A stretch of DNA of 11,934 nt, taken from Candidatus Micrarchaeota archaeon (GTDB taxonomy: Archaea; Micrarchaeota; Micrarchaeia; Anstonellales; JAHKLY01). The translations under genes were made by a program, and so were the position numbers. Location of the stretch: NCBI GenBank assembly GCA_020854825.1, contig JAHKLY010000007.1:1-11934 (forward strand), in the 5' to 3' direction. Below are positions 1 to 11,934 of the stretch, in pieces. The notes below the pieces were generated by a model that was not told the DNA's origin, did not search any database, and saw nothing but the letters and a program-made list of their open reading frames with translations. Within the stretch, counting starts at the first letter, position 1, and every line of letters starts with the position of its first letter.

Positions 1-228
1 ACTCTTATCCTAGGCAACAACCAAATCTCAGACATTAGCGCACTCTCCACCCTCACAAACTTACAACAACTTTACCTAAACAACAACCAAATCTCAGACA
101 TAAGCGCACTCTCCACCCTCACAAACTTAAATTATCTTGACCTAAACAACAACCAAATCTCAAACATTAGCACACTCTCCACCCTCTCAAACTTAAATTG
201 GCTTTACCTACGGGACAACCAAATCTCA
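1..228 (+). repeat. 66-bp tandem LRR-coding repeats, module 1 (4 units, first one partial)
   Basis: Recurrent scaffold aac caa atc tca (g/a)ac at(t/a) agc (g/a)ca ctc tcc acc ctc (a/t)ca aac tta at 66-nt spacing. Confidence 0.95.
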
Positions 229-3200
229 ACAAATCCCTTATGTCCTGCATCTGCTGAGCAAAATGCAACTTACGAAACATTAGAAGGTTATGGATGTTCA
301 ATCAATTGGGATTCACAATCCGAAGCAATTTGTGATGACGCTTGTGATAATGATGAAGATGGATTAGTGGATTGTGATGACAGCGATTGTGATGAAGATG
401 AGGCGTGTGAAGAAGAATGCACTCCAATCTCAATCCCTGACTCAGGCTTATTAAATGCAGTTTGTTCTGCATTAGGAGAAGACCCGGGATGCACAGTTAC
501 AGACTGCGATGCATTAACATTAACTGAACTATGGGCGAAGGATAGAGAAATCTCAGATTTAACAGGAATAGAATATTTCACAAACTTAAATACTCTTATC
601 CTAGGCAACAACCAAATCTCAAACATTAGCGCACTCTCCACCCTCTCAAACTTAAATTTTCTTTACCTATACAGCAACCAAATCTCAGACATAAGCGCAC
701 TCTCCACCCTCACAAACTTACAAGGTCTTTCCCTATGGGACAACCAAATCTCAGACATAAGCGCACTCTCCACCCTCACAAACTTAAATACTCTTGAACT
801 AGGCGGCAACAAAATCTCAGACATAAGCGCACTCTCCGGCCTCTCAAACTTAACTAAACTTTACTTAGGATCTAATCAGATTTCAATAAATCCAGAATGT
901 CCTGCGTCAGCTGTTCAACTAAGTATTAAAGCAGTATTAGAAGTATTGGGATGTTATGTTGATTGGTCTTCACAATCCGAAGCAATTTGTGATGATGGTT
1001 GTGATAATGATGAAGATAGATTAGTGGATTGTGATGACAGCGATTGTGATGAAGATAAAGCGCCTTTAGAATGTGCATTTACTGCATTGTGTCCAGATTG
1101 TGAAGTATGTGCAGGTGAACCAATGGGTTGTGATAAATTTGGAGCCACACCAGAAGAATGTAATGTACAATTAGGATGTGAACTAGTCCAGGAAAGCGTT
1201 TGCATATTAGGTGTAGATTGCGGTTCTTATGGAGAAGAGAGTGCATGTACAAAAGGAGGATGTTGTGATTGGGTGGATGTTAAAGGACAATGGCAATGTA
1301 CACAAAATTTTGATTGTAGTATTTATCAAAATGGACAGCAATGCTCTGGAAATCCATGCTGTTTATGGACATTAGGTTCTCCAGTTTGTAGTGGAACACC
1401 TGTTGCATGCGAAGACAGAGCCAAAGAAGAGTGTATTCTTGGCTGTTTAGTAGGTGGATATACAGATGACGAATCAGTAACATGTTATTCTGATAATGAG
1501 TGTTCAGTTTCTTGTGAAGTTGAAGAAGAAGTTGTATGCGAAGATAATAGTGTGTGTAAAATAGTTGCTTGTGACTCTGGAGAAAATTGTGATGAGTTTA
1601 TATTTGAAGATGCTTGTGGAAATGGAACTTGTAGCGATGAAGAATATGATATTACTATGTATTGCGGAGTTAATACAAACAGACTCCAATGCAGTGAGTA
1701 TGCAATAAATAATTTGATATACGCACATGGTGATGGAGTATGTGTTTTATTATATCATAACCAAGTAGGGATGAATAGCAATGAATTTTTAAATTATTGT
1801 GATTTTATTGGGGGCGAACGTGAGATTCCAAAAGAAGGTGAATCATTAACAGCAACAATATGTGATTGTGAAACTGAAGAACTTGTTTGTGATGGCTATA
1901 GAATTTGTAATGCTGGCCAAGGGCCAAATGAACAATTCTGCGGTTCAGGAACTTGTGGAGGAATAGAATATGAAGTAAACTCATATTGTCAATTATTTGT
2001 TGATTCTTTAGAAGAATGTGCAGAAGCTGTATTAAACCCAAATGTAATGACAGCATACCCCTATTATAGTGATGGAAATTGTATGATAGCAAATTATGAA
2101 GGTTCTGGTGCAGATGAAAGTCAATTCCAACAAGATTGTGCATTGATGGGTGCAACAACATCGCCAGTTCCTTTATCTGCAACAATGACTGCATGTGATT
2201 GCTCAGTAGACTGCAGTGATCCTGCAAATATTGATAAATTGGAATGTTGTTTTGACCCAACTGATAATTCAACCTTCTATAATAGGGTGTCAGTAGTAAA
2301 TAATATATTATACTTAATACAATCTGTTAGATTATGTGAAGGCGACTTTTACTTGCCAGCTCATGATGATTGGTATTATAATTCATACGGCCAACCCACC
2401 CCACCAAATGGGGAAGGTTTTGCGATTATAATGTCTGCAGAAGATGTGATATTATATGGGCCTCAATCCGGACCAGCAGTAATGAGAGGAAATAATACAG
2501 GGGTTGGTATTTGGATGCATGGTTCAAACAATATTATTGATGGGAATAATAATCTAATAATACAAGATTATTCAACTGCAATATTGGCAGAATCAATAAT
2601 AAGTAATCCTTTTGAATATAATATTAAGAATTTAATAATAAATGATGTTGCTAAAGGAATTCATATAAGGCCAAATCTTTTACTTATGCAACAAAGCCAG
2701 GTGACATACGGCAATATACAAAATGTTAATATAGACGGAACCTGTGGTACTGGAATTAAATTTGAACAAGCAAGCTTCAATAATGAGTTATTTGGTTTAA
2801 CAAAAGGGACAATTGAAAATTGTGAGATGGAATGCAACCAGCCTTATACAGGATTTAATGCAGATGTAAGAAATGTAATTTTAATAGCTAAAGACTCATT
2901 AGAAGTATTAAATGGAAATGATGCATTAATGACTACAAAACGAAAGGATGAAAATGTAGGGATTGAAGGCAATTTACAATATAATTCTGTGAATATAAAA
3001 ATTGATCCTGCTCAAAAAGCCCAATACGAACAAGGAAAAATTTTAAAATTTGAAGAGCCAGTAGATTTCATTAGAGGGGATTCAGGCAATTCATTATCAA
3101 TCAAAGAAAAAGAAACAGGAGTATATGGTATTGCATGGAAATCAGATTTGATAAACATAAGTAAAAACTTGCCAATGAACGCAGTTAATTTTGATAATAA

Positions 3201-4956
3201 ATTTATTTCTCTTGATTCACAGGAGATTCTAGAATATATTGAAGAGAAAACTATTGAAGTAACATTAGAATTAACTTCAGATATGGAATGTTCAAAGGCC
3301 ATAGTCTATAAATCCTCATCACATGTTGAGAATAGAGAAGCTATATTAACAGACATAAATAAAGAAGCAGTAATAAGAAATGGCCAATCAACAGTTGATT
3401 ATATCACAGTAACTTCTTGTGTTGATCCTGTATTGTTTGATCCTCAAGGAAATGATATAATTAATGGATATATTGTTTTTGAAGTAATGAACGGCCAATG
3501 GAGTTCATATACAGTCGCACAAGAGGGAGTTCCGGAGATTATAAGTATTGAAATAACACCGCAAGAGCCGACAAAAGACGATGATTTAGTTTGCACAGCC
3601 ATAGCTGTGAGTGATGAAGTAGACGAATTAAACGTAACGTTTACTTGGACAGAAGAAGGTGCGCCTTTCTCAATATCTGAAAATACAATTTCTTGTGAAT
3701 CTGGAGAAGAATGCACTGATACACTTTCTTCAGATGAAACATATTCAGACCAAGTATGGACCTGTACAGTAATTGCTTTTGATGGCGAAGAATATTCAAG
3801 TGAAGAATCAGATACAGTAACAATTCATATGGGTGAATTACCAGATGAAATCTGCGATGATGGCATTGATAATGATGGGGATGGTTTAGTAGACTGTGAA
3901 GACCCAGATTGTGATAATGAAACTTGTGATATTGGAAAAGTATGTATTAATTATGAATGTATATCTCCTACATCTCCATCAAGACCTTCACCTACTCCTT
4001 CAAATCCTAATTTAGAAATTGATACAATTGGGGAATATTGTGTTGGTGAAGAAATAACTTTTATAATAACTGATGAGTATAGTGATTTAATATCAACAGC
4101 AAAAATAGAGGAATCAAAAGTAAAATTAGGAACATTAGGATACACAAATTCAATTGGAGAATTTAGATATATATTTGAAAACACAGGAAATTACAGGATA
4201 GATGTATATAAATCAAGATATAATCCTGCATATCAATATATTTCAGTATCTGATTGTACAGGTTATTGTACTAGCAATAATGACTGTTTAACAGGATATT
4301 ATTGTGATGGAACGCAGTGTGTTGAATTAGAATGTTTACCTGGATTTACAGTATCAGGACATTCATGTGTTGCTCCTAAAGAATGTCAAACAGACAGTAA
4401 TTGTAAGCATGATCAATATTGTTCAGATGAAGGGTATTGTGAAATAGTTGAATGTGATTGCGGATATATAGCAGATCATCAATGTAATGAATATGAATGT
4501 TGTTCTGATATAGATTGCAAAGTGCCTATAGAATTATGTGTTAATAATGTTTGTACCCCAGTAAGTGATGATATAATAGAACAAACAGAAGGATCAAAAG
4601 AAGATTCAGCAATTGAGAGATTTGAGAAAAAACTATTGAATATAAAATCAAAATTAGGAGAATTATATATATTAATTGAGGAAGCAAAAATTACCGGACA
4701 AAATATAGATGAAATGCAAGAATTATTAGAACAAGCAAGAGCTTATGTATTACAAGGAGATTTTGAAAACGCAGAATTAACAATACAAAAAGCAAAATTC
4801 CAAGTAGAGGGTGAAGATAAAGATACAAGAATTGTGTATTTAGCATTATTGATAATTGTATTATTAATTTCAATGATGGTTTGGCACAATAAAACAAAAG
4901 CAGCAAATCATATAAAAACAAAAAATACTAAGAAAAAAACAAGAAAGAAAAGATAA
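1..4956 (+). CDS. Giant membrane-anchored surface protein (5'-truncated, >=1651 aa): tandem internalin-like LRR modules, Cys/Asp-rich CDDGxDNDxDGLVDC motifs, Cys-rich repeats, probable beta-helix and Ig-like domains, coiled coil, C-terminal TM helix and basic tail
   Basis: Frame +1 is open from base 1 (TLILGNNQISDISALSTLTNL...) into the listed ORF, so GTG 367 is an internal Val. 22-aa LRRs of the form LxxLxLxxNQISDISALSxLxN. C-terminal IVYLALLIIVLLISMMVW followed by a Lys/Arg-rich tail. Stop TAA at 4954-4956. Domain names come from motif recognition, not a database search. Confidence 0.9.
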   Translation, partial: TLILGNNQISDISALSTLTNLQQLYLNNNQISDISALSTLTNLNYLDLNNNQISNISTLSTLSNLNWLYLRDNQISTNPLCPASAEQNATYETLEGYGCSINWDSQSEAICDDACDNDEDGLVDCDDSDCDEDEACEEECTPISIPDSGLLNAVCSALGEDPGCTVTDCDALTLTELWAKDREISDLTGIEYFTNLNTLILGNNQISNISALSTLSNLNFLYLYSNQISDISALSTLTNLQGLSLWDNQISDISALSTLTNLNTLELGGNKISDISALSGLSNLTKLYLGSNQISINPECPASAVQLSIKAVLEVLGCYVDWSSQSEAICDDGCDNDEDRLVDCDDSDCDEDKAPLECAFTALCPDCEVCAGEPMGCDKFGATPEECNVQLGCELVQESVCILGVDCGSYGEESACTKGGCCDWVDVKGQWQCTQNFDCSIYQNGQQCSGNPCCLWTLGSPVCSGTPVACEDRAKEECILGCLVGGYTDDESVTCYSDNECSVSCEVEEEVVCEDNSVCKIVACDSGENCDEFIFEDACGNGTCSDEEYDITMYCGVNTNRLQCSEYAINNLIYAHGDGVCVLLYHNQVGMNSNEFLNYCDFIGGEREIPKEGESLTATICDCETEELVCDGYRICNAGQGPNEQFCGSGTCGGIEYEVNSYCQLFVDSLEECAEAVLNPNVMTAYPYYSDGNCMIANYEGSGADESQFQQDCALMGATTSPVPLSATMTACDCSVDCSDPANIDKLECCFDPTDNSTFYNRVSVVNNILYLIQSVRLCEGDFYLPAHDDWYYNSYGQPTPPNGEGFAIIMSAEDVILYGPQSGPAVMRGNNTGVGIWMHGSNNIIDGNNNLIIQDYSTAILAESIISNPFEYNIKNLIINDVAKGIHIRPNLLLMQQSQVTYGNIQNVNIDGTCGTGIKFEQASFNNELFGLTKGTIENCEMECNQPYTGFNADVRNVILIAKDSLEVLNGNDALMTTKRKDENVGIEGNLQYNSVNIKIDPAQKAQYEQGKILKFEEPVDFIRGDSGNSLSIKEKETGVYGIAWKSDLINISKNLPMNAVNFDNKFISLDSQEILEYIEEKTIEVTLELTSDMECSKAIVYKSSSHVENREAILTDINKEAVIRNGQSTVDYITVTSCVDPVLFDPQGNDIINGYIVFEVMNGQWSSYTVAQEGVPEIISIEITPQEPTKDDDLVCTAIAVSDEVDELNVTFTWTEEGAPFSISENTISCESGEECTDTLSSDETYSDQVWTCTVIAFDGEEYSSEESDTVTIHMGELPDEICDDGIDNDGDGLVDCEDPDCDNETCDIGKVCINYECISPTSPSRPSPTPSNPNLEIDTIGEYCVGEEITFIITDEYSDLISTAKIEESKVKLGTLGYTNSIGEFRYIFENTGNYRIDVYKSRYNPAYQYISVSDCTGYCTSNNDCLTGYYCDGTQCVELECLPGFTVSGHSCVAPKECQTDSNCKHDQYCSDEGYCEIVECDCGYIADHQCNEYECCSDIDCKVPIELCVNNVCTPVSDDIIEQTEGSKEDSAIERFEKKLLNIKSKLGELYILIEEAKITGQNIDEMQELLEQARAYVLQGDFENAELTIQKAKFQVEGEDKDTRIVYLALLIIVLLISMMVWHNKTKAANHIKTKNTKKKTRKKR
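313..1056 (+). repeat. 87-bp direct repeat closing each LRR module (313-399 and 970-1056)
   Basis: Encodes SQSEAICDDxCDNDEDxLVDCDDSDCDED. Three mismatches in 87 nt by manual comparison. Confidence 0.92.
580..885 (+). repeat. 66-bp tandem LRR-coding repeats, module 2 (5 units)
   Basis: Same scaffold as module 1. Bases 592-621 are identical to 1-30. The last unit is diverged at synonymous sites. Confidence 0.95.
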
Positions 4957-5001: not shown

Positions 5002-5048
5002 ATTAATTTCTAGATAATTTAAAATATAAAAAATGCAGGGGACGTGAT

Positions 5049-5112
5049 TTATTCTTCCTGTTTTTTCTTTTTAGTACAGGTTTTTCTTTTTTCTTAAAAA
5101 AGAAAAAAGTGT
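5049..5112 (-). other. tRNA-Leu intron 2 (64 nt, T-loop position 58/59)
   Basis: Central helix GTTC/GAAT with AAA bulges on both sides (relaxed BHB). Removal restores T-loop TTCAAAT. The exact register is inferred from BHB geometry because AAA occurs at both ends. Confidence 0.8.
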
Positions 5113-5159
5113 TTGAACACGCGAAGGCACTAAGCCACAGGGTCCTAAGCCCTGCCCGT

Positions 5160-5225
5160 TTAGCCAACCAATTTCCTAGTTCTTTTTTTTCTAGGTTTTC
5201 TTTTCTTTCAAGAAAAGAAAGGCTA
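5160..5225 (-). other. tRNA-Leu intron 1 (66 nt, D-loop position 21/22)
   Basis: BHB-like junction: central helix GGTC/GGCT, 3-nt bulges AAT and AAA, intron-side helix AGCC/GGTT. Cutting after the second bulge nucleotide on each side restores GGTCAAACGG. Confidence 0.85.
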
Positions 5226-5351
5226 TTGACCACTCCGGCACCCCTGCAATTAAATGTGAGTGGGAGTCATAAAACAAAGTTTTATTCAACCCCTGCGAAC
5301 ACTAAGTGTATAAATAATAATCGAAAAAGATAAAAAACAAGATGCAAGTGA

Positions 5352-5504
5352 TTACTTGACTGTTTTAAGGTCTTTTTTCTTTGGTCTCAGGTATGTGTAT
5401 CCGCATTTTCTGCATTTTTTAGCTCCTTTTTTATTTCTAGCTTTGCATTTTTTGCATATCCATATTTTTATTATTTGTGCATCTGCTTCTGGAAATTTTC
5501 CCAT
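5352..5504 (-). CDS. rpl40e: 50S ribosomal protein L40e (eL40), 50 aa
   Basis: Manual translation [50 protein letters not shown], with the C-x2-C-x-ARN...KCRKCG..LRPK zinc-ribbon signature of archaeal L40e. Shorter than any ORF in the track. Confidence 0.95.
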
Positions 5505-5507
5505 AAT

Positions 5508-5514
5508 ATCACCT
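5508..5514 (-). promoter_or_regulatory. Archaeal Shine-Dalgarno site of rpl40e
   Basis: AGGTGAT on the minus strand, 3 nt upstream of the ATG. Confidence 0.75.
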
Positions 5515-5741
5515 AAACATAATTTTATAAGTAAATTTATATATTAATTGTGTAAAGAACCATATTTAAACATTATGTTTTATAAAAATAATGTATTTTA
5601 GTCAGTTATATGTATAAAATAAGGTATGTTGTTTATATACCTAGTTTAAGTAAGTATGAATCTTACAGTCTTCGTCGTTTTGTAAATCAAAACGCTTTTG
5701 ACATCTATCTTTAATGGGCAGTTGTCAAATAAAGTGTGACA

Positions 5742-5828
5742 TTGATGTCAAATATTTGAATATATAATATTCAAATGCCTTTGACATTTTTGATGTCAAA
5801 TATTTGAATATATAATATTCAAATGCCT
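5742..5828 (+). repeat. 39-bp perfect direct repeat (5742-5780 and 5790-5828) built from palindromes and ending in the first 4 nt of tRNA-Thr
   Basis: TTGATGTCAAATATTTGAATATATAATATTCAAATGCCT occurs twice with period 48. Each copy is also preceded by TGACA. Confidence 0.92.
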
Positions 5829-5860
5829 CGGTAGCTCAGAGGTAGAGCGATCGCCTTGTA

Positions 5861-5923
5861 AGCACCTTTTCTTTGGAAAGAAAAGTTGCACCAAAAGAAA
5901 TTTTAATTCTCTTTTGATAGGAA
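5861..5923 (+). other. tRNA-Thr intron 1 (63 nt, canonical position 37/38)
   Basis: Central helix CTTG(32-35)/TAGG(5918-5921) with bulges TAA and AAA. Confidence 0.85.
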
Positions 5924-5944
5924 AGCGATAGGTCGGGGGTTCAA

Positions 5945-6042
5945 TTGGCCTTTTTCTTTCTTTTGAGAAAAGAAAGAAAAACCTCAACGAAAAAGAAAGA
6001 AAATGAGGTTTCTTAAAAAAAGGAAGAAGTAGATAAGAACAA
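5945..6042 (+). other. tRNA-Thr intron 2 (98 nt, T-loop position 58/59)
   Basis: Perfect central helix GTTC(5939-5942)/GAAC(6037-6040) with AAT bulges on both sides. Removal restores T-loop TTCAATT. Confidence 0.85.
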
Positions 6043-6065
6043 TTCCCTCCCGGGGCTTTTTATTT

Positions 6066-6827
6066 TTATATACTAATTATGCCAAATAAGTATAAAATAA
6101 AAATAATTACGGGTTGATGTAAAAAATAAATAATTAACGAATGTCTGCCAATATAATTTAAAGCATCTACTAATTTATTATTTGGATCTTTAATAAATCT
6201 AAATTGTCTTTTATAATTTTTATAAAACATATTCCCTAAAGATAGCCCTATTAATACAATGCCAAACCAAGGTAAAATTGGAAAATAATCAAATGTATTA
6301 AAATGATGTGGTATAAATCCCAACCAGAATAATTCATTAACATTGAACTGCAGGGTTTGTAAATAAAAACCAGTAATGATAATAAGAATACCAATAATTA
6401 AATTATAAATATTTTTTTCTTTTATTAAATTAAATTTAAGAAATGGAATAGAAAGAATTATTGAAATTCCAATTAAATGTAGTATTCCAAATCTGATAAA
6501 ATTATTGGGAAAAATTAGCCAAGTGATACTACTTATTATTAACCCAAGAGAAAATATTTTTAAACCTCTTAAAAATAATTTTATATATCTGTTTGATTTA
6601 TCAATCTGGTTTTTTGAATAACTTAATGTTAAAGAAATTCCTACTAATAAAAGAAAAAGAATAGCTGCACTTCTACCTATTAATAAAAATAAGGCAGAAT
6701 GAATATCAAATGCATAGTTTCCAAAATATGATAAATCAAATAAGAGATGATATATGATCATTAAAATTATGGCAATTCCTCTAAGAGAATCTATCTCCCA
6801 AAATCTATTTATTTTAGAATTTTTCAT
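6066..6827 (-). CDS. DUF1624 / heparan-alpha-glucosaminide N-acetyltransferase (HGSNAT)-like multi-pass membrane protein, 253 aa
   Basis: Family motifs RFWEIDSLRGIAIILMIIYH, FGILHLIG, DYFPILPWFG and GRHSLIIYFLHQP, plus several hydrophobic helices. Confidence 0.88.
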   Translation of the reverse strand: MKNSKINRFWEIDSLRGIAIILMIIYHLLFDLSYFGNYAFDIHSALFLLIGRSAAILFLLLVGISLTLSYSKNQIDKSNRYIKLFLRGLKIFSLGLIISSITWLIFPNNFIRFGILHLIGISIILSIPFLKFNLIKEKNIYNLIIGILIIITGFYLQTLQFNVNELFWLGFIPHHFNTFDYFPILPWFGIVLIGLSLGNMFYKNYKRQFRFIKDPNNKLVDALNYIGRHSLIIYFLHQPVIIFILYLFGIISI

Positions 6828-6891: not shown

Positions 6892-9800
6892 TTAAGGTTT
6901 GAAATCTTTACTTGAACTTTCTTTATTAACACTTGTTGTTGGTGGTTTTATTGAATTAGTATCTGGTTTATTATATCCTTCGTATATTTTTTCAATTCCA
7001 TCTTTTGTTTGTATATATTTATCAATTGTTAGTAAAGATTTACATTCTCCGTCAAGACATACATATCCAAATGGACAGTATTCTATAGAAGATCTCATCA
7101 CCCCATTTATATCGCAGAAGTATTCATATAAACTTAATTCATCTCTGCAATTGTCTTTCTTACTTTCTCCTAAATATGTTGTTTCTCCATAGTTGAATAT
7201 ATTATATCCTTCATCTGAATCAATACATTCTCCGGTTAATAAGTTCAATACACAATCAATAGAGCAGGTTACTGAATTACTTGGGTATATAGATAAATCA
7301 ATTACTTCATCACATATATTGTCTCCTATATTGTTACCTGTAGATGTATCTAATAAGATATCTATTTCATTTCTGCACAAATAGTTATCTTCAATTATAT
7401 TATAATATGCTCCATTAGAGAATAATCCACGATAACAGGTAGTAACACTATTAGATATTATTTCATTGTTATTTCCCAATATATAAATTCCATCTCCCAT
7501 TGTTTCTTCACATACTATTGTATTATCAGTAATTTTACTATTATGTGTATTTAATAAAAGAAGTGACCCCATACTTAAAAGTGTTTCTTCATCATTTTCA
7601 ATTATATTTCTTTCAATTGTCAAATTATCGGAATTCATGAAGTCTAATGGAGCGATAAGGAAATAAATTCCTTCAGTTCGTATAGTGTTATCAATAATTT
7701 CAGAATTTAGTGTATATGTTCCGTATATTGATGAAAATCCTTCAAACGTATTATTTTGTATTTTTGAATTATTAAAGAATGAAGTTCCAATTCCGTAATT
7801 TATAAATTTAATATTTTTTATTGTAATTCCATTTAAGTAATTTCCTTCATCTCTATATTCTGTTTTTTTTATTGAGTATGTTTCTTGTTGTTCTTCTGAA
7901 TTTCTTGTATCTTCTTCATACCATATATTGCCTATAATTACTGTATTATTACCTTCAATAACTATATTATCTGCACCAATAGTTATATTTCCAAAAACTT
8001 CGTATTCTCCTTCGCAGAAAATTGTATCTTCCATAATTATCATTCCTGCATAAGGTTCAACACATTCTCTTAATTCGCATCTTAGATCATCTCCAAACAC
8101 TTCATAAACTGAACATTCATTATCAGTACATGTACAATCTCCTAAACAATCATTTGGTACATTAGAATATTCATAATAATCTAATCCTACACATCCACTT
8201 AATGCAGAACAATCTGTATCTTCACAATCATTTTCTGCATCACATTCTGCATCGCAATCAGTTACTGAACATTCATGTGTTAAATCAACAGTTCCTAAAG
8301 TACATGATTCTGTTTCTTCATTACATGTTGATGTAAATCCACCAAAGAAATCCCATGTAAATGGATTTGCATCTGGATTATTATTACATGTTTCAATACT
8401 TAGTAAATTATTTCCAGAACAATCTACAGGTGTACCTGCTTGGCATTCAGTTATTCCATCTAATAATTCAGTACATGTTTCTTGTCCATCGCAATATATT
8501 TCATTATCACATTCTTCGATAATTGTTGAATCATATGCAATACATTCTCCTGCAGAACAAGAATAATCAGAGTATATTCTATTTGTTCCATCACAAGATT
8601 CTGTATTATATGTATTACAGTTTTCTAATTCTATTGTTTCTGCTACACAAATATTTTCTTCACAAATACCTTCGGTTTGCATTATTAAATCTCCAGTGCA
8701 ATAAATAGTATTTAATGAAGAACAATCTGAATCACTTTCGCAAGTGGTTTCTCCTATTAAATTAAATCCAAAACATCCCCATTCATTTTCTGTTTCAACT
8801 TCTCTTACATCACATACTTTTGTTAATAATGATGGTGCAACAGGATTATGCGGAGTATCTACTATTTGTTTACCAATTGATACACTTCCTCTGTATAAAT
8901 ATTCTCCTAAATAAGAATAATGGAAGTATATTTTTTCTTCTGTTATTTCATCAACAATAATTGTATATCCACCAAAATGATATTCTTCTCTTTCAATTCC
9001 ATTTGGGATATATAATTGGAGATGTTCACATTCGTGACAGTTTGTACATCTATAATCGTTTTCATAAATTTCATATATTGAACATTCATTATCAGTACAT
9101 AAACAGTCATCCAAACAAGTGTTTGGTACATTAGAATATTCATAATAATCTAATCCTACACATCCACTTAATGCAGAACAATCTGTATCTTCACAATCAT
9201 TTTCTGCATCACATTCTGCATCACAAGATTCTACTGAACATTCATGTGTTAATTCAATTGTTCCAATTGTACATGCCCTTACATCTTCATTACATGTTGA
9301 TGTAAATCCACCAAAGAAATCCCATGTAAATGGATTTGCATCTGGATCATTTGTACATGTTGCAATACCTGCTAAATTATTTCCTGAACAATCTACAGGA
9401 ACACCTTCTTGACAACCAAAATCTAAATTACAATATTCAGTTCCATCACAATAAATACCATTATCACAATATGAATGATCTGGTTCATAAGTACATTCAA
9501 AGATTGCATAACAGTTACCTATTGCACATTCAACTCCTTCATTACAATCTGTATTTTGAGTTTCATCATATATTACATATCCATCTGCATCACATAATGC
9601 ACAAATTCCTGCATCTTGTCCATCACTTGAGCAATCACTCCAATGTCCCACAATACATAATTTTTCACCAGCACAAATTCCTTCTCCACATTCTTCAGTG
9701 ATTTCATCTACAATCATATCACAATTATCGTCTATTCCATTACATATTTCTTCCATTTCTGGATTAACGAAATAATTTAAATCATTGCAATCTGTATTAT

Positions 9801-11934
9801 CTTCAACATATCCTTCTGCTGGATAATCTGTACAAGTTTCAAATGTATTTGTTGGATCTCCATATCCATCTCCATCTGAATCTCTATAGTATGTATATAT
9901 AGGTAAATCTTCATCAATTTCTCCATTACAATTATCATCTATTCCATTACATATTTCTTCTGCGTCAGGATGAACATTAGGATTTGAATCATCACAATCT
10001 CCACATTCTAAATCCCATCCATCTCCATCAGCATCTGTGCCTGTTAATGTATATTCGAAATCCATTGAACATTCATTTTCAGTACATACACAATCATCCA
10101 AACAAGTGTTTGGTACATTTGAATAAGTTCTATATTTTCCCGCATAGCATCCACTTAAATCTTCACAATCTGTATCTTCACAATCATTTTCTGCATCACA
10201 TTCTGCATCACAATCAGTTACTGAACATTCATGTGTTAAATCAACAGTTCCTAAAGTACATGATTCTGTTTCTTCATTACATGTTGATGTAAATCCAGCA
10301 AAGAAATCCCATGTAAATGGATTTGCATCTGGATTATTATTACATGTTTCAATACTTAGTAAATTATTTCCAGAACAATCTACAGGTGTTCCACTTAAAC
10401 ATGATGGTTCTCCGCCTGTTAATATAGAGCACATTTCATTTCCATTACAGAATAATCCATCATCACAATTATCTTCTTCATATACTCTGTTTATCACACA
10501 TTGCGTTTCAATTTCTTCACTACAGGTATAATCTTCATACATTATTAATGAACCATCGCAGAAATAATTATTTAATCTATTACAATCTTCTAATCCTGCA
10601 TTTTGTGAAATACATTTATGTTCTGAATTACAAACTCCTTCTCGTGTTATTATTAAATCTCCAGAACAATATGTATAATCTAAATGTTCACATTCAATAT
10701 CTTCCCAACATTCTGCTACATTAAAAATAAATGTTTCTTGTAATTCGCATATCCCATTATCTAATCTGATAGTTATATTATGTTCGCCATAATCCAACCA
10801 GTATGGAACAATAGGTTCAAATTCTTCAGATCTTGAATCTTTTGAATCTCTAGTTAATTCAGTTACATCCCAACCCCAATCTCTATAATCAAAATTATTA
10901 ATTTCAAAATAAATTATATCTCCATTTGATACCCAAGAATATTCTGGAGGCGAAATTAAAATTATATTTGGAGTACTATACACTCCAATATTCCAATGTT
11001 CTGAATGAGTATTAAATTCTCCATCAGTTACAGAAACATACCATTCGTATTCTCCTTGTTCTAAATCAATGGAATAACTTTCTTCTTCAGTTGTATGTGT
11101 AGTTATTTCTTCTCCTCCTTGTAAAATATGAAGTGTATATATTAATGTATCTTCATTTAAGTCGTTTCCTTCCCAAGTAAATTCAATGGAATTTCCACAA
11201 ACACCTAATTCATTTTCTGGAGAAATTAATTCAATTGTTGGTGGATAATTTGTATCTACTTTAAATCTCCATTCCTCACTAACTTGTGTATTATATCCAT
11301 CGTTTGCTACTACATACCAATACATATATTCTTCGCATTCTTCAAATCCATTAAATAAGAATAGAGTACTATATCCAGAATATATAGGAGAATAACTTTT
11401 TCCTCCATGTATGTTTGTTTCACATGAAAGATATACTGTATATTGTATTGTATCTGAAAATTCACTTTCTCCTCTCCATATTAAAGGTATTGCACCACCT
11501 TCATTTACATTTATAGTTATATCATTTTCAGGGCTAATTAAATCTATTGTTAATGAACTTGGATTATTTATACAAACTCCATTATTACAAAAAGTTCCAA
11601 ATGGACATGAGGTTTCAAATGTTATTAATTCAGTTCCATCGCAATAGTGTTCTGTAATTTTTGTTTCATCAACACAATAATCCTCGTAACTTCCTAATCT
11701 ATTTGTTGTAATTCCAAATATAGTTAATATTGGTCCCCCATCTGAATCTTCACAAAATTCAGGACATTCATTTTCCCAATTTGATAATCCAGTATCAGAA
11801 TATTCTCCATCAAAAGCAATTGCTTCACAAGTTATAATCGTACATTCAATATTATTACCAGGATAAATTGCATCTAAATCACATAAAGTTCCTGTTTCAC
11901 AAATACCTTCTGTTTCATAACCTTCTTGTAAAAT
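6892..11934 (-). CDS. Giant Cys/acidic-rich extracellular protein (5'-truncated, >=1680 aa): Ig/FN3-like domains, three ~110-aa Cys-rich repeats, two MopE-like 'EICNGIDDNC' putative metal-binding motifs, right-handed beta-helix (NosD/pectin-lyase-like), CxDSD modules
   Basis: The frame has no stop from 11325 to the window end (ILQEGYETEGICETGTLC...CEAIAFDGEYS...CEDSDGG...), so ATG 11325 is internal. Motifs DADGDG..DCDDSNPNVHPDAEEICNGIDDNC and NSKIQNNTF/NSEIIDNTI/NLTIERNII/NSKITDNTI. No C-terminal TM helix. Confidence 0.9.
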   Translation of the reverse strand: MLQEGYETEGICETGTLCDLDAIYPGNNIECTIITCEAIAFDGEYSDTGLSNWENECPEFCEDSDGGPILTIFGITTNRLGSYEDYCVDETKITEHYCDGTELITFETSCPFGTFCNNGVCINNPSSLTIDLISPENDITINVNEGGAIPLIWRGESEFSDTIQYTVYLSCETNIHGGKSYSPIYSGYSTLFLFNGFEECEEYMYWYVVANDGYNTQVSEEWRFKVDTNYPPTIELISPENELGVCGNSIEFTWEGNDLNEDTLIYTLHILQGGEEITTHTTEEESYSIDLEQGEYEWYVSVTDGEFNTHSEHWNIGVYSTPNIILISPPEYSWVSNGDIIYFEINNFDYRDWGWDVTELTRDSKDSRSEEFEPIVPYWLDYGEHNITIRLDNGICELQETFIFNVAECWEDIECEHLDYTYCSGDLIITREGVCNSEHKCISQNAGLEDCNRLNNYFCDGSLIMYEDYTCSEEIETQCVINRVYEEDNCDDGLFCNGNEMCSILTGGEPSCLSGTPVDCSGNNLLSIETCNNNPDANPFTWDFFAGFTSTCNEETESCTLGTVDLTHECSVTDCDAECDAENDCEDTDCEDLSGCYAGKYRTYSNVPNTCLDDCVCTENECSMDFEYTLTGTDADGDGWDLECGDCDDSNPNVHPDAEEICNGIDDNCNGEIDEDLPIYTYYRDSDGDGYGDPTNTFETCTDYPAEGYVEDNTDCNDLNYFVNPEMEEICNGIDDNCDMIVDEITEECGEGICAGEKLCIVGHWSDCSSDGQDAGICALCDADGYVIYDETQNTDCNEGVECAIGNCYAIFECTYEPDHSYCDNGIYCDGTEYCNLDFGCQEGVPVDCSGNNLAGIATCTNDPDANPFTWDFFGGFTSTCNEDVRACTIGTIELTHECSVESCDAECDAENDCEDTDCSALSGCVGLDYYEYSNVPNTCLDDCLCTDNECSIYEIYENDYRCTNCHECEHLQLYIPNGIEREEYHFGGYTIIVDEITEEKIYFHYSYLGEYLYRGSVSIGKQIVDTPHNPVAPSLLTKVCDVREVETENEWGCFGFNLIGETTCESDSDCSSLNTIYCTGDLIMQTEGICEENICVAETIELENCNTYNTESCDGTNRIYSDYSCSAGECIAYDSTIIEECDNEIYCDGQETCTELLDGITECQAGTPVDCSGNNLLSIETCNNNPDANPFTWDFFGGFTSTCNEETESCTLGTVDLTHECSVTDCDAECDAENDCEDTDCSALSGCVGLDYYEYSNVPNDCLGDCTCTDNECSVYEVFGDDLRCELRECVEPYAGMIIMEDTIFCEGEYEVFGNITIGADNIVIEGNNTVIIGNIWYEEDTRNSEEQQETYSIKKTEYRDEGNYLNGITIKNIKFINYGIGTSFFNNSKIQNNTFEGFSSIYGTYTLNSEIIDNTIRTEGIYFLIAPLDFMNSDNLTIERNIIENDEETLLSMGSLLLLNTHNSKITDNTIVCEETMGDGIYILGNNNEIISNSVTTCYRGLFSNGAYYNIIEDNYLCRNEIDILLDTSTGNNIGDNICDEVIDLSIYPSNSVTCSIDCVLNLLTGECIDSDEGYNIFNYGETTYLGESKKDNCRDELSLYEYFCDINGVMRSSIEYCPFGYVCLDGECKSLLTIDKYIQTKDGIEKIYEGYNKPDTNSIKPPTTSVNKESSSKDFKP
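8110..10392 (-). repeat. Three dispersed intragenic ~330-bp repeats (about 8110-8436, 9079-9405, 10066-10392)
   Basis: Each encodes PVDCSGNNL...PDANPFTWDFF.GFTSTCNE...CDAECDAENDCEDTDC...YSNVPN.CL.DC.CT.NECS. 8209-8433 vs 10165-10389 differ at 2 of 225 nt. 8153-8253 is identical to 9122-9222. Confidence 0.93.

What the first reader, a model, noticed from the sequence alone, without database searches (positions are those of the whole stretch)
5049..6042. All four tRNA introns carry a hairpin plus mirror-repeat (intrastrand triplex) motif with covarying sequence
Seen, reading in tRNA sense, each intron is Y-arm / short loop / R-arm / spacer / mirror of R-arm. Thr-58/59: TTTTTCTTTCTTTT-gag-AAAAGAAAGAAAAA (5968-5981), then AAAAAGAAAGAAAA (5990-6003), an exact 14-nt mirror. 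Thr-37/38: CTTTTCTTT-gg-AAAGAAAAG, then AAAAGAAA (5893-5900), an exact 8-nt mirror. Leu-58/59: R-arm A6-G-A5, then A5-G-A6, an exact 12-nt mirror. Leu-21/22: R-arm AAGAAAAGAAAA, then AAAAAAAAGAA, the mirror minus one G. Tract length and G spacing differ between introns, yet the third tract follows its own R-arm, which looks like covariation. Established: this geometry defines an intramolecular triplex, R.R-Y on this strand and the parallel Y.R-Y (T.A-T, C+.G-C) type on the complementary strand. Intrastrand-triplex repeats are known as bacterial intergenic elements (PIT/BoxC type in E. coli). Inference: these introns derive from, or function as, triplex-forming elements. I do not know of this being described for archaeal tRNA introns.
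Basis: partly seen in the sequence, partly recalled or inferred. Interest (0 to 1): 0.9.

Follow-up and report, generated by a model that had tools for sequence, protein, structure and literature searches.

The report
Triplex-type repeat inside archaeal tRNA introns
The introns of two archaeal tRNA genes carry a hairpin followed by a purine tract that mirrors one hairpin arm, a three-part design that recurs with matching sequence changes across a whole archaeal order and fits a three-stranded fold.

Summary
All four introns of tRNA-Thr(UGU) and tRNA-Leu(UAG) hold a pyrimidine arm, a short loop, a purine arm, a 6-8 nt spacer and a purine tract that mirrors the purine arm.

A hairpin-only scan of the 828-kb genome found 56 such hairpins. 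In 26 of them a perfect mirror tract follows within 32 nt, against a mean of 0.2 in shuffles. Over 14 genomes of the order, mirror beat direct copy 117 to 8. It won all 52 unique cases where the two differ by two or more matches. Internal G-C pairs face G in the third tract in 205 of 212.

The same module also lies outside introns, just after stop codons and after tRNA 3' ends. It is therefore a dispersed element that forms the core of most introns here.

Only base-triple pairing is known to require this geometry. The closest known kind is the bacterial BoxC/PIT/TMECO intrastrand-triplex repeat.

Whether RNA or DNA folds, and what the fold does, is untested. I found no description of it in the open literature searched. 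Verdict: real, a new variant of a known kind, of high interest.

The parts
5825..6057 (+). tRNA-Thr(UGU) gene with two introns (233 nt; spliced 72 nt)
   Evidence: Read. In-silico removal of both introns gives a 72-nt tRNA-Thr (tgt) by ARAGORN.
5861..5923 (+). Thr intron 1, anticodon loop (37/38-compatible), 63 nt. Equivalent placements run from 5860-5922 to 5864-5926.
5866..5900 (+). Module in Thr intron 1: Y-arm 5866-5874, loop 5875-5876, R-arm 5877-5885, spacer 5886-5892, third tract 5893-5900
   Evidence: mirror 8 of 9.
5945..6042 (+). Thr intron 2, T-loop (58/59-compatible), 98 nt. Equivalent placements run from 5942-6039 to 5947-6044.
5951..6003 (+). Module in Thr intron 2: Y-arm 5951-5964, loop 5965-5967, R-arm 5968-5981, spacer 5982-5989, third tract 5990-6003
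   Evidence: mirror 14 of 14. A near-identical intron lies in G000 C2:75323-75449 (90% over 127 nt).
5982..6008 (+). Competing hairpin 2: 5982-5986 pairs with 6004-6008, leaving the third tract in its loop
   Evidence: RNA fold. Not a general feature of the family.
5034..5247 (-). tRNA-Leu(UAG) gene with two introns
   Evidence: Read. ARAGORN finds Leu (tag) of 85-89 nt after removal of both introns.
5162..5227 (-). Leu intron 1 in the D-loop, about 66 nt; exact borders not fixed
   Evidence: In each of 4 DNA runs a contig joins 5159 to 5226, skipping 66 nt. The shorter side is only 24 nt, so this may be another tRNA-Leu gene.
5180..5220 (-). Module in Leu intron 1: Y-arm 5220-5210, loop 5209-5208, R-arm 5207-5197, spacer 5196-5191, third tract 5190-5180
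   Evidence: mirror 10 of 11.
5051..5114 (-). Leu intron 2, T-loop, 64 nt (one of several equivalent placements)
5061..5107 (-). Module in Leu intron 2: Y-arm 5107-5096, loop 5095-5093, R-arm 5092-5081, spacer 5080-5073, third tract 5072-5061
   Evidence: mirror 12 of 12. The same intron type lies in G000 C2:3625 and C3:74140.

Best explanation
The four introns are built around one copy each of a dispersed, self-folding module. Its parts are a pyrimidine arm, a 2-4 nt loop, a complementary purine arm, a 6-8 nt turn that is often a C...G mini-palindrome, and a purine tract that is the mirror of the purine arm.

The module is kept by selection for three-strand complementarity. The first two tracts form a Watson-Crick hairpin. 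The third tract folds back antiparallel to the purine arm, so that A faces A-T/U pairs and G faces G-C pairs. This is an intramolecular 'paperclip' triple helix.

The module spreads among tRNA genes as the core of introns cut out by the splicing endonuclease. It also sits in 3' trailers of tRNA genes and just after protein-gene stop codons.

I commit to the transcript (sense RNA) as the place where it folds. There it would act as an autonomous, compact, probably nuclease-resistant fold that keeps long U-rich and A-rich stretches from pairing with the tRNA exons. It may also stabilise the excised intron or the RNA 3' end.

Shown: the tract relations, their co-variation, the spacing, the contexts and the order-wide spread. 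Inferred: that a triplex forms, that it forms in RNA, and what it does. The confidence given is for the whole statement including the RNA level. That the module is selected for a triplex fold in some nucleic acid I put at about 0.65.
For: Mirror, not direct copy:
- 117 to 8, with 27 ties, among the 152 of 208 hairpins that have a third tract; 52 of 52 unique cases with a difference of 2 or more.
- Strongly asymmetric arms are mirrored, such as A5-GAGAG to GAGAG-A5 in G011. G018 holds both A6GA3G to GA3GA6 and A3GA5G to GA5GA3.

Co-variation:
- 75 distinct R-arms in 121 unique elements.
- 1277 of 1309 triples are T/A/A or C/G/G.
- Internal C-G pairs face G in 205 of 212. This speaks for base-specific contact and against A-minor docking.
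- Own versus non-self tracts: 0.28 versus 2.06 mismatches.

More than chance: 26 of 56 G000 hairpins have a perfect mirror, against a shuffle mean of 0.2.

Fixed register: the spacer is 8 nt in 17 of 40 G000 copies and 25 of 35 G011 copies, otherwise mostly 6. Typical spacers are CCCTCGGG, CGTTCACG, CCCTAGGG, CTTCGG and CCTTGG.

Spread: the pattern occurs in 78 of 121 genomes of the order. Overlapping-match counts are far above the backwards control in G000 (167 v 2), G001 (145 v 6), G011 (159 v 0), G018 (79 v 3) and G070 (107 v 0).

Transcript-level hints:
- All 32 intron copies of G000 that have a third tract lie in tRNA sense (read by eye).
- A T-loop motif lies on the element's strand only in 43 cases and on the opposite strand only in 9.
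- Five copies start 1-5 nt after same-strand stop codons.
- Some turns are the RNA tetraloop types C(UUCG)G and C(CUUG)G; that naming is recalled knowledge.

A splicing endonuclease gene is present: 414 aa, with an N-terminal domain and two catalytic-type stretches.
Against: - No tool here folds three strands, and no RNA data exist for this organism.
- On the sense strand the triples would be of the purine type. Holder et al. [quoted passage not shown] A-rich purine triplexes are also weak in DNA (recalled).
- Hairpin stems hardly ever hold G.U. Only 8 mismatches occur in 100 elements (T:G 3, C:A 1). That is unusual for a selected RNA helix.
- In the Thr and Leu T-loop introns a second hairpin would hold the third tract in its loop and compete with a full triplex.
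- Near protein genes both orientations occur. 11 of 100 copies lie after a same-strand stop. 13 of 100 lie within 60 nt of an opposite-strand stop.
- The outermost C-G pair faces C, not G, in 14 of 45.
- Loci of relatives were picked by a Y-R-R pattern. There the presence of a purine tract is by selection, though the mirror-versus-direct outcome is not.
- Copies within a genome are paralogues, so the sign tests overstate independence.
Confidence: 0.4

Rival explanations
1. The same module acts as DNA. It would be an A/T-rich counterpart of the bacterial BoxC/PIT/TMECO intrastrand-triplex repeats. It would fold when a strand is single, during replication, behind RNA polymerase or in a mobile intermediate. 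Its presence in introns would be secondary: insertions in tRNA genes survive only where splicing removes them.
For: - The block order (Y stem, loop, R stem, loop, R stem) is that of TMECO, which forms a DNA triplex in vitro (PMC4666352; abstract and section 16).
- There are almost no G.U pairs in stems.
- Copies lie outside transcribed introns: inter-tRNA spacers, positions after stop codons, and a tandem array in G040 locus L026.
- The complementary strand offers T.A-T-rich pyrimidine-type triples, the more stable kind at neutral pH (recalled).
- Contigs of public DNA runs break at the modules, as expected of a dispersed repeat.
Against: - A structure that either DNA strand can form does not predict the strong co-orientation with tRNA genes (32 of 32 by eye; 43 to 9).
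- No IS200/RAYT-type Y1 transposase was found in G000, which is 97.6% complete. Its occurrence in the order (32 of 121) does not follow element load: G004 and G007 have none, while the element-free G003 has four.
- The bacterial elements showed no promoter or terminator activity and no in vivo effect (passage).
Confidence: 0.25
2. The mirror relation is selected for a reason other than a triple helix. One example is a protein that reads the hairpin and the single-stranded purine tract together. Another is a transcription pause or termination signal made of a T-rich arm plus purine mirror repeats on the non-template strand.
For: - Copies sit right after stop codons and tRNA 3' ends.
- The Y-arm holds T5-T6 runs, which are archaeal termination signals (recalled).
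- The third tract is often predicted in a hairpin loop, that is, exposed.
Against: - No known protein mode of recognition calls for a mirror rather than a direct or inverted repeat.
- A dyad-symmetric dimer would select direct or inverted repeats.
- Termination inside 39 tRNA introns would be harmful.
- G opposite G-C in 205 of 212 pairs is what base triples predict.
Confidence: 0.15
3. Only the hairpin matters. The third tract is an inherited passenger of a young, recently amplified intron family and is under no selection of its own.
For: - Many copies are identical. One 14-bp arm pair occurs 10 times in G000.
- Whole introns are shared between different tRNA genes, for example G000 C2:22235, C2:112830 and C3:187231.
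Against: - 75 distinct R-arms across 12 genomes in at least 6 families each carry their own mirror.
- A passenger would drift or be lost. Instead mismatches to the element's own tract average 0.28.
- An ancestor would have had to be a mirror by chance, and every later arm change would have had to be copied into the third tract.
Confidence: 0.07
4. The third tract is a direct repeat of the R-arm that offers the Y-arm an alternative Watson-Crick partner, making a two-state switch.
For: In the window each R-arm is nearly self-mirror, so a direct copy fits almost as well: 13 of 14, 7 of 9, 11 of 12 and 9 of 11.
Against: - Direct beats mirror in only 8 of 152 cases.
- In all 52 unique cases where the two differ by 2 or more, the mirror wins.
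Confidence: 0.02
5. Chance resemblance between low-complexity A-rich tracts in a genome of 28% G+C.
For: A/T-rich triplex motifs with short stems are common in scrambled genomes (PMC4666352 section 16).
Against: - 26 perfect mirrors were observed, against a mean of 0.2 and a maximum of 3 in 300 shuffles.
- Stems are 8-16 bp.
- The backwards-pattern control is near zero in element-rich genomes.
Confidence: 0.01

Closest known systems
BoxC / PIT / TMECO intrastrand-triplex repeats of E. coli and other bacteria (Hoyne et al. 2000 as cited; Holder et al. 2015, PMC4666352, read)
   Same: - Same block order on one strand: pyrimidine stem, loop, purine stem, loop, purine stem that mirrors the second.
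- Dozens of dispersed copies per genome.
- Patchy distribution among relatives.
- The complementary strand carries the pyrimidine-type version.
- No assigned function.
   Different: - Archaeal, not bacterial.
- A-rich (about 80% T/A/A triples) rather than G/C-rich.
- Arms of 8-16 nt of many different sequences with three-way co-variation, rather than one conserved consensus.
- Second loop 6-8 nt rather than 3.
- Most copies in G000 lie inside tRNA introns and are co-oriented with transcription, whereas PIT elements showed no orientation rule (passage).
Archaeal tRNA introns at non-canonical positions, and intron families shared between tRNA genes (Thermoproteales intron transposition; Kaneta et al. 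2018, PMC5829648, passages read)
   Same: - Several introns per tRNA gene, in the D-loop, anticodon loop and T-loop.
- Near-identical introns in different tRNA genes.
- A splicing endonuclease gene is present.
- Standard tRNA finders miss the genes, as that paper notes for DPANN lineages.
   Different: No triplex-type or mirror-repeat core has been described for such introns in the papers found (searches; the Asgard census preprint has no occurrence of 'triplex', 'purine' or 'hairpin').
RNA triple helices that protect RNA 3' ends (ENE with A-rich tract, MALAT1 type); recalled, not read here
   Same: - A hairpin plus a genome-encoded A-rich tract that folds back on it.
- Location at 3' ends of transcripts for part of the copies.
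- The complementary strand of the module has the U-rich, stem-loop, U-rich, A-rich order of those elements.
   Different: On the transcribed strand there is one U-rich and two A-rich tracts, so the triples would be A.A-U and G.G-C, not U.A-U. No sequence or family relation exists; Rfam gives no match in the window.
GAA.TTC-type purine mirror repeats and H-DNA that impede transcription when the purine strand is the non-template strand; recalled, not read here
   Same: A-rich purine mirror repeat on the non-template strand, and an orientation bias with respect to transcription.
   Different: Here a complementary pyrimidine arm lies on the same strand, so the fold can close within one strand. The tracts are short and interrupted by a fixed turn.

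Membership tests
Archaeal endonuclease-spliced tRNA intron | Interrupts a tRNA gene; removal restores a canonical cloverleaf | tested here: met
   A 72-nt tRNA-Thr(tgt) and an 85-89-nt tRNA-Leu(tag) are found by ARAGORN only after both stretches are removed. ARAGORN is permissive, so exact borders rest on canonical loop sequences.
Archaeal endonuclease-spliced tRNA intron | Bulge-helix-bulge or relaxed variant at the exon-intron junctions | not tested
   Minimum-energy folds were not examined for the motif, and no BHB scanner was on hand.
Archaeal endonuclease-spliced tRNA intron | The genome encodes a splicing endonuclease | tested here: met
   G000 C3 holds a 414-aa frame with PF02778 and two PF01974 stretches. 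The subunit type (two-unit or three-unit) was not determined.
Intrastrand-triplex repeat (BoxC/PIT/TMECO kind; ITxF definition) | Three consecutive blocks on one strand; block 2 is the reverse complement of block 1 | tested here: met
   Perfect stems of 8-16 bp. Only 8 mismatches occur in 100 elements when up to 2 are allowed.
Intrastrand-triplex repeat (BoxC/PIT/TMECO kind; ITxF definition) | Block 3 is the mirror of block 2, giving A.A-T and G.G-C triads | tested here: met
   1277 of 1309 triples are canonical. The mirror beats the direct copy 117 to 8.
Intrastrand-triplex repeat (BoxC/PIT/TMECO kind; ITxF definition) | Short loops (ITxF 1-6 nt; Hoyne et al. 0-10 nt, as quoted) | tested here: inconclusive
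   Loop 1 is 2-4 nt in most copies. Loop 2 is mostly 8 nt, sometimes 6 or 10. This lies inside the wider definition and outside the narrower one.
Intrastrand-triplex repeat (BoxC/PIT/TMECO kind; ITxF definition) | More frequent than in scrambled sequence | tested here: met
   26 v 0.2; backwards control near zero.
Intrastrand-triplex repeat (BoxC/PIT/TMECO kind; ITxF definition) | Forms a triplex in vitro (CD, NMR, melting) | not testable with these tools
   No three-strand folding tool is available; this is bench work.
TMECO sequence family proper | The G/C-rich 9-nt stem consensus given in PMC4666352 section 16 | tested here: not met
   The arms here are about 80% A/T and variable. The architecture is the same, but this is not the same sequence family.
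REP-like repeat mobilised by a Y1 (IS200/RAYT) transposase | A cognate Y1 transposase gene in genomes that carry the repeat | tested here: not met
   PF01797 gives 0 matches in G000, G004 and G007, all rich in the element. It is present in 32 of 121 genomes without relation to element load.
ENE / MALAT1-type RNA triple helix | Two U-rich strands clamp one A-rich strand (U.A-U) | tested here: not met
   The transcribed strand has one pyrimidine and two purine tracts. Only the complementary strand has that order.

The most novel reading that the evidence does not exclude
A natural, long (8-16 triples) purine-type RNA triple helix (A.A-U and G.G-C) folds in archaeal pre-tRNA introns, tRNA trailers and mRNA 3' ends. 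It is kept by three-way co-variation across a whole order. It serves as a self-contained stability and insulation module, and perhaps as the vehicle by which these introns spread. This would overturn the view that RNA cannot form the purine motif. It would also be the first triple-helix RNA element of Archaea.
Probability: 0.25. Interest if true: 0.92.

Novelty: new variant of a known kind. Interest (0 to 1): 0.78.

Why it matters
Natural intramolecular triplexes have mostly been argued from single conserved sequences. Here dozens of different arm sequences each carry their own mirror tract, across many genomes. That is the kind of comparative evidence that established RNA secondary structures, now applied to a third strand.

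The finding ties a non-B-form motif to a defined biological setting: introns, trailers and 3' ends in genome-reduced archaea whose tRNA genes standard finders miss. The motif also gives a practical handle for finding the hidden tRNA genes and introns of these lineages.

Long-standing questions become directly testable with a few oligonucleotides and one recombinant endonuclease. Do A-rich purine-type triplexes form in RNA? What do BoxC/PIT-like repeats do? How do endonuclease-spliced introns spread?

Tried and rejected
- Strand test by wobble pairs. I counted stem mismatches in 100 oriented elements, allowing up to 2 mismatches. Only 8 were found (T:G 3, C:A 1, T:T 3, C:T 1), too few to tell an RNA strand.
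- Hairpin 2 as a general part. The spacer's 5' half pairs with bases after the third tract in the window's T-loop introns. Across genomes this is not more frequent than in a permutation control (G000 25 v 19.9, G011 4 v 8.4, G018 9 v 11.0; G007 8 v 4.6). Rejected as a family feature.
- Y1 transposase association: rejected.
- Orthologue comparison with the same-genus genome G001. The best match to the Thr locus is a tRNA with anticodon GTT that carries the same anticodon-loop intron type but no T-loop intron. No clean orthologous pair was obtained, so no per-site compensatory count was made.
- Naming the organism. The search for related loci with the 253-aa acyltransferase found no relative. 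The lineage is given only as the unnamed order of the genome search. 'DPANN-like' is my guess from genome size, G+C content and tRNA disruption.
- Rfam on G000 C7:5600-7100, C2:220200-220800 and C1:36600-37700. Only partial tRNA hits and chance-level matches appeared. The context of the two modules at C7:6359-6475 stays unknown.
- No RNA holder was listed among public runs. The DNA contigs laid showed no letter differences and a few length differences at 5060, 5190, 5964 and 5967. They break at the modules. These results bear on assembly only.
- One search was a translation of the wrong frame and gave nothing.
- A full tRNA and intron census of G000 was not achieved. The contexts of the 56 hairpins were assigned by eye from flanking sequence, with frame and G+C checks.
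- The per-genome rows carry wrong genome labels for loci L056-L069. This was corrected from then on, and the totals are unaffected.
- Supplementary files of the papers were not opened. The ITxF tables of Holder et al. may list A/T-rich motifs in archaeal genomes that I could not see.
Full report
WHAT IS THERE.
The window is a whole 11,934-bp contig (C6) of an 828-kb genome. The genome has 28% G+C, 7 contigs and 97.6% completeness. ARAGORN and Rfam find no tRNA in the window.

Read by eye, a tRNA-Thr(UGU) gene lies on the plus strand at 5825-6057 and a tRNA-Leu(UAG) gene on the minus strand at 5247-5034. Each is broken by two intervening stretches.
- Removing 63 nt from the anticodon loop and 98 nt from the T-loop gives a 72-nt tRNA-Thr with canonical loops.
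- Removing about 66 nt from the D-loop and 64 nt from the T-loop gives a tRNA-Leu of 85-89 nt.
- ARAGORN accepts many neighbouring placements, so borders are known only to within a few bases.
- A contig in each of four public DNA runs joins 5159 to 5226, skipping 66 nt, which is the D-loop stretch. With only 24 nt on its shorter side, it may come from another tRNA-Leu gene.
- The genome encodes a 414-aa splicing endonuclease with an N-terminal domain and two catalytic-type stretches.

THE OBSERVATION.
Mirror matches are 14 of 14, 8 of 9, 12 of 12 and 10 of 11.

The four cases are weak on their own. Each R-arm is nearly its own mirror image, so a direct copy fits only one base worse. The test had to come from more copies and from asymmetric arms.

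GENOME-WIDE.
I scanned G000 for perfect pyrimidine-arm/purine-arm hairpins of 8 bp or more, with no reference to any third tract. The scan gave 56 loci.
- In 26 of them a perfect mirror of the R-arm follows within 32 nt. In 41 the match reaches k-1.
- Mononucleotide shuffles of the downstream 32 nt give means of 0.2 and 2.6, with maxima of 3 and 6 in 300 shuffles.

By eye from the flanks, with frame and G+C checks, the 56 hairpins fall into these contexts:
- 39 interrupt tRNA-like exons, in the D-loop, anticodon loop, variable-loop/T-stem region and T-loop. Of these, 32 have the third tract.
- 5 lie in spacers or trailers beside tRNA genes.
- 5 start 1-5 nt after the stop of same-strand frames of 105-892 codons. 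One more (C2:61052) is intergenic.
- 2 lie in an unidentified G+C-rich context on C7.
- 4 are plain hairpins inside long frames with no convincing third tract.

About ten intervening stretches in the same tRNA genes have no such hairpin. 'All introns' therefore holds for the window, not for the genome.

THE ORDER.
A degenerate pattern (ten pyrimidines, 2-4 nt, ten purines, 5-12 nt, nine purines) matched in 78 of 121 genomes sampled from the order. Counts of overlapping matches far exceed the backwards control in several families:

| Genome | Pattern matches | Backwards control |
|---|---|---|
| G000 | 167 | 2 |
| G001 | 145 | 6 |
| G004 | 81 | 10 |
| G007 | 55 | 0 |
| G011 | 159 | 0 |
| G018 | 79 | 3 |
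| G070 | 107 | 0 |
| G083 | 125 | 7 |

Many genomes have none.

I fetched about 1 Mb around such matches from 13 genomes and ran the same hairpin-first analysis.
- Of 208 hairpins, 152 have a third tract.
- The mirror fits better than the direct copy in 117, worse in 8 and equally in 27.
- Among unique arm-plus-tract pairs the split is 93, 8 and 26.
- In all 52 unique cases where the two differ by two or more matches, the mirror wins.

The asymmetric cases are decisive: A5-GAGAG followed by GAGAG-A5 in G011, and A2-GAG-A4-G-A3 followed by its reverse in G073. G018 holds both A6-G-A3-G with G-A3-G-A6 and A3-G-A5-G with G-A5-G-A3.

The relatives' loci were chosen by a pattern that demands a purine tract. 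Its presence there is by selection, but the mirror-versus-direct outcome is not.

CO-VARIATION.
- 121 unique elements hold 75 distinct R-arms.
- 1277 of 1309 aligned triples are T/A/A or C/G/G.
- Internal C-G pairs face G in 205 of 212.
- The outermost C-G pair is the exception (G 30, C 14, A 1).
- The mirror of an arm misses its own tract by 0.28 bases on average and the tracts of other arms by 2.06.
- Copies within a genome are paralogues and genomes are kin, so the p-values printed overstate independence. The number of distinct, individually matched arm sequences is the sounder measure.

ANATOMY.
- Loop 1 is 2-4 nt in most copies.
- The spacer is 8 nt in most copies and 6 nt in many others.
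- The spacer usually starts with C and ends with G, and is often a small palindrome (CCCTCGGG, CGTTCACG, CCCTAGGG, CTTCGG, CCTTGG, CCCTGG).
- This is a tight turn that sets the third tract antiparallel beside the R-arm, in register from the first base.
- Stems are almost free of mismatches: 8 in 100 elements when two are allowed.
- In the window's T-loop introns a 5-bp helix between the spacer and the bases after the third tract is predicted. Such a helix would hold the tract in a loop and compete with a full-length triplex. Across genomes it is not more common than in a permutation control.

WHAT IT IS.
A mirror repeat cannot arise from the usual copying errors, which give direct or inverted repeats. 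It also cannot serve Watson-Crick pairing.

The only nucleic-acid structure known to call for a hairpin plus a mirror of its purine arm is an intramolecular triple helix. On this strand it would be the purine type (third strand antiparallel to the purine arm, A.A-T/U and G.G-C). On the complementary strand it would be the pyrimidine type.

G opposite G-C pairs argues for base-specific contact and against minor-groove docking of adenines.

The same block order defines the BoxC/PIT/TMECO repeats of enterobacteria and cyanobacteria. Holder et al. 2015 showed that these form a DNA triplex in vitro and linked them with genomic instability, without an assigned function (PMC4666352: abstract, passages and sections 15-16 read). 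The archaeal module is not a member of that sequence family, being A-rich and variable. It is the same kind of object.

RNA OR DNA?
For the transcript:
- Every intron copy in G000 with a third tract lies in tRNA sense (32 of 32 by eye).
- A crude test with a T-loop motif within 220 nt gives 43 on the same strand only, 9 on the opposite strand only, 11 on both and 54 with none, out of 117.
- Copies hug stop codons and tRNA 3' ends in sense.
- Some turns are of RNA tetraloop types.

Against the transcript:
- The paper cited above states that purine-motif triplexes cannot form in RNA (passage). From memory I recall an old report of a poly(A.A.U) helix, which I could not check.
- G.U pairs are nearly absent.
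- Near protein genes both orientations occur.

No Y1 transposase accompanies the element. No RNA run holds this organism (listed under Tried and rejected).

I put about 0.4 on a transcript-level fold, 0.25 on a DNA-level element, 0.15 on a selected mirror for some other reason, and the rest on the lesser rivals.

NOVELTY.
Full-text searches gave these results:
- 'tRNA intron' with 'triplex' and 'archaea': 2 unrelated papers.
- 'tRNA intron' with 'mirror repeat': none.
- 'tRNA introns' with 'DPANN': 6 papers.
- tRNA/introns/Woesearchaeota/bulge-helix-bulge: listing seen.

None of these listings points to this motif. I read passages of only two of the papers. Kaneta et al. 2018 (passages) report that tRNA sets of DPANN lineages cannot be completed by prediction. 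A 2026 preprint on Asgard tRNA introns has no occurrence of 'triplex', 'purine' or 'hairpin'.

The library holds open-access papers only, and supplements were closed. 'Not described' therefore means not found there.

VERDICT.
This is a new variant of a known kind, in a new setting. Interest 0.78.

Noticed in passing
window 5742-5828: A 39-nt exact direct repeat lies at 5742-5780 and 5790-5828, with 48-nt spacing. It duplicates the stretch just upstream of tRNA-Thr together with the gene's first four bases. Each copy holds a 23-nt near-palindrome. Similar 'tgacat...gatgtca' palindromes precede other tRNA genes of G000, for example at C3:226548. This may be a promoter or leader motif.
   Followed up: partly
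G000 whole genome: Standard finders recover few tRNA genes in a 97.6% complete genome. ARAGORN with introns finds 11, several with implausible 200-400-nt introns. Rfam tRNA gives 7 matches over threshold and 25 at E up to 10. Most tRNA genes carry two or three intervening stretches.
   Followed up: partly
G000 C2:22235, C2:112830, C3:187231; also C2:3625, C3:74140 and window 5051-5114: Whole T-loop introns, including spacer and 3' tail, are near-identical in different tRNA genes. This is a sign of intron spread between genes at the same tRNA position.
   Followed up: no
G000 C4:81290-81323 and C3:226740-226840: A second T-loop intron type without the Y/R module is shared by two tRNA genes on opposite strands. 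It starts after 'ggttcaa' with a 'cgcgaagcgttgag...' hairpin.
   Followed up: no
G000 C7:6359-6475: Two modules 90 nt apart lie in a G+C-rich, non-coding context that matches no Rfam family. Their spacer type equals that of the anticodon-loop intron at C2:220587. This may be a split or otherwise hidden tRNA, or another RNA.
   Followed up: partly
G000 C3:138880-139000: The module that follows the stop codon of a 549-codon frame runs into a tandem array of a 13-nt A-rich unit.
   Followed up: no
G040 locus L026 9661-9830: Three modules stand in tandem, an array rather than single insertions, after a 530-codon frame.
   Followed up: no
G011 loci (L045, L055, L070, L072 and others): In this family the module has conserved flanks: GAGCC or GAGGC before the Y-arm and GTATAA or GTAAAA after the third tract. 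This holds both in tRNA introns and elsewhere. The mobile or functional unit is therefore longer than the three tracts.
   Followed up: no
G001 locus L002 (minus strand of about 1150-1620): The same-genus genome carries the window's anticodon-loop intron type (same arms and same third tract) in a tRNA with anticodon GTT that has no T-loop intron.
   Followed up: partly
window 1-4956 and 6892-11934: The tRNA pair is flanked by two very large open frames that run off the contig. One has leucine-rich repeats. The other has MopE-type metal-binding and NosD-like domains. An HGSNAT-type acyltransferase lies at 6066-6827.
   Followed up: partly
G000 C4:107279: One module lies antisense, directly upstream of a tRNA gene. 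It is the only clear orientation exception near a tRNA gene in G000.
   Followed up: no
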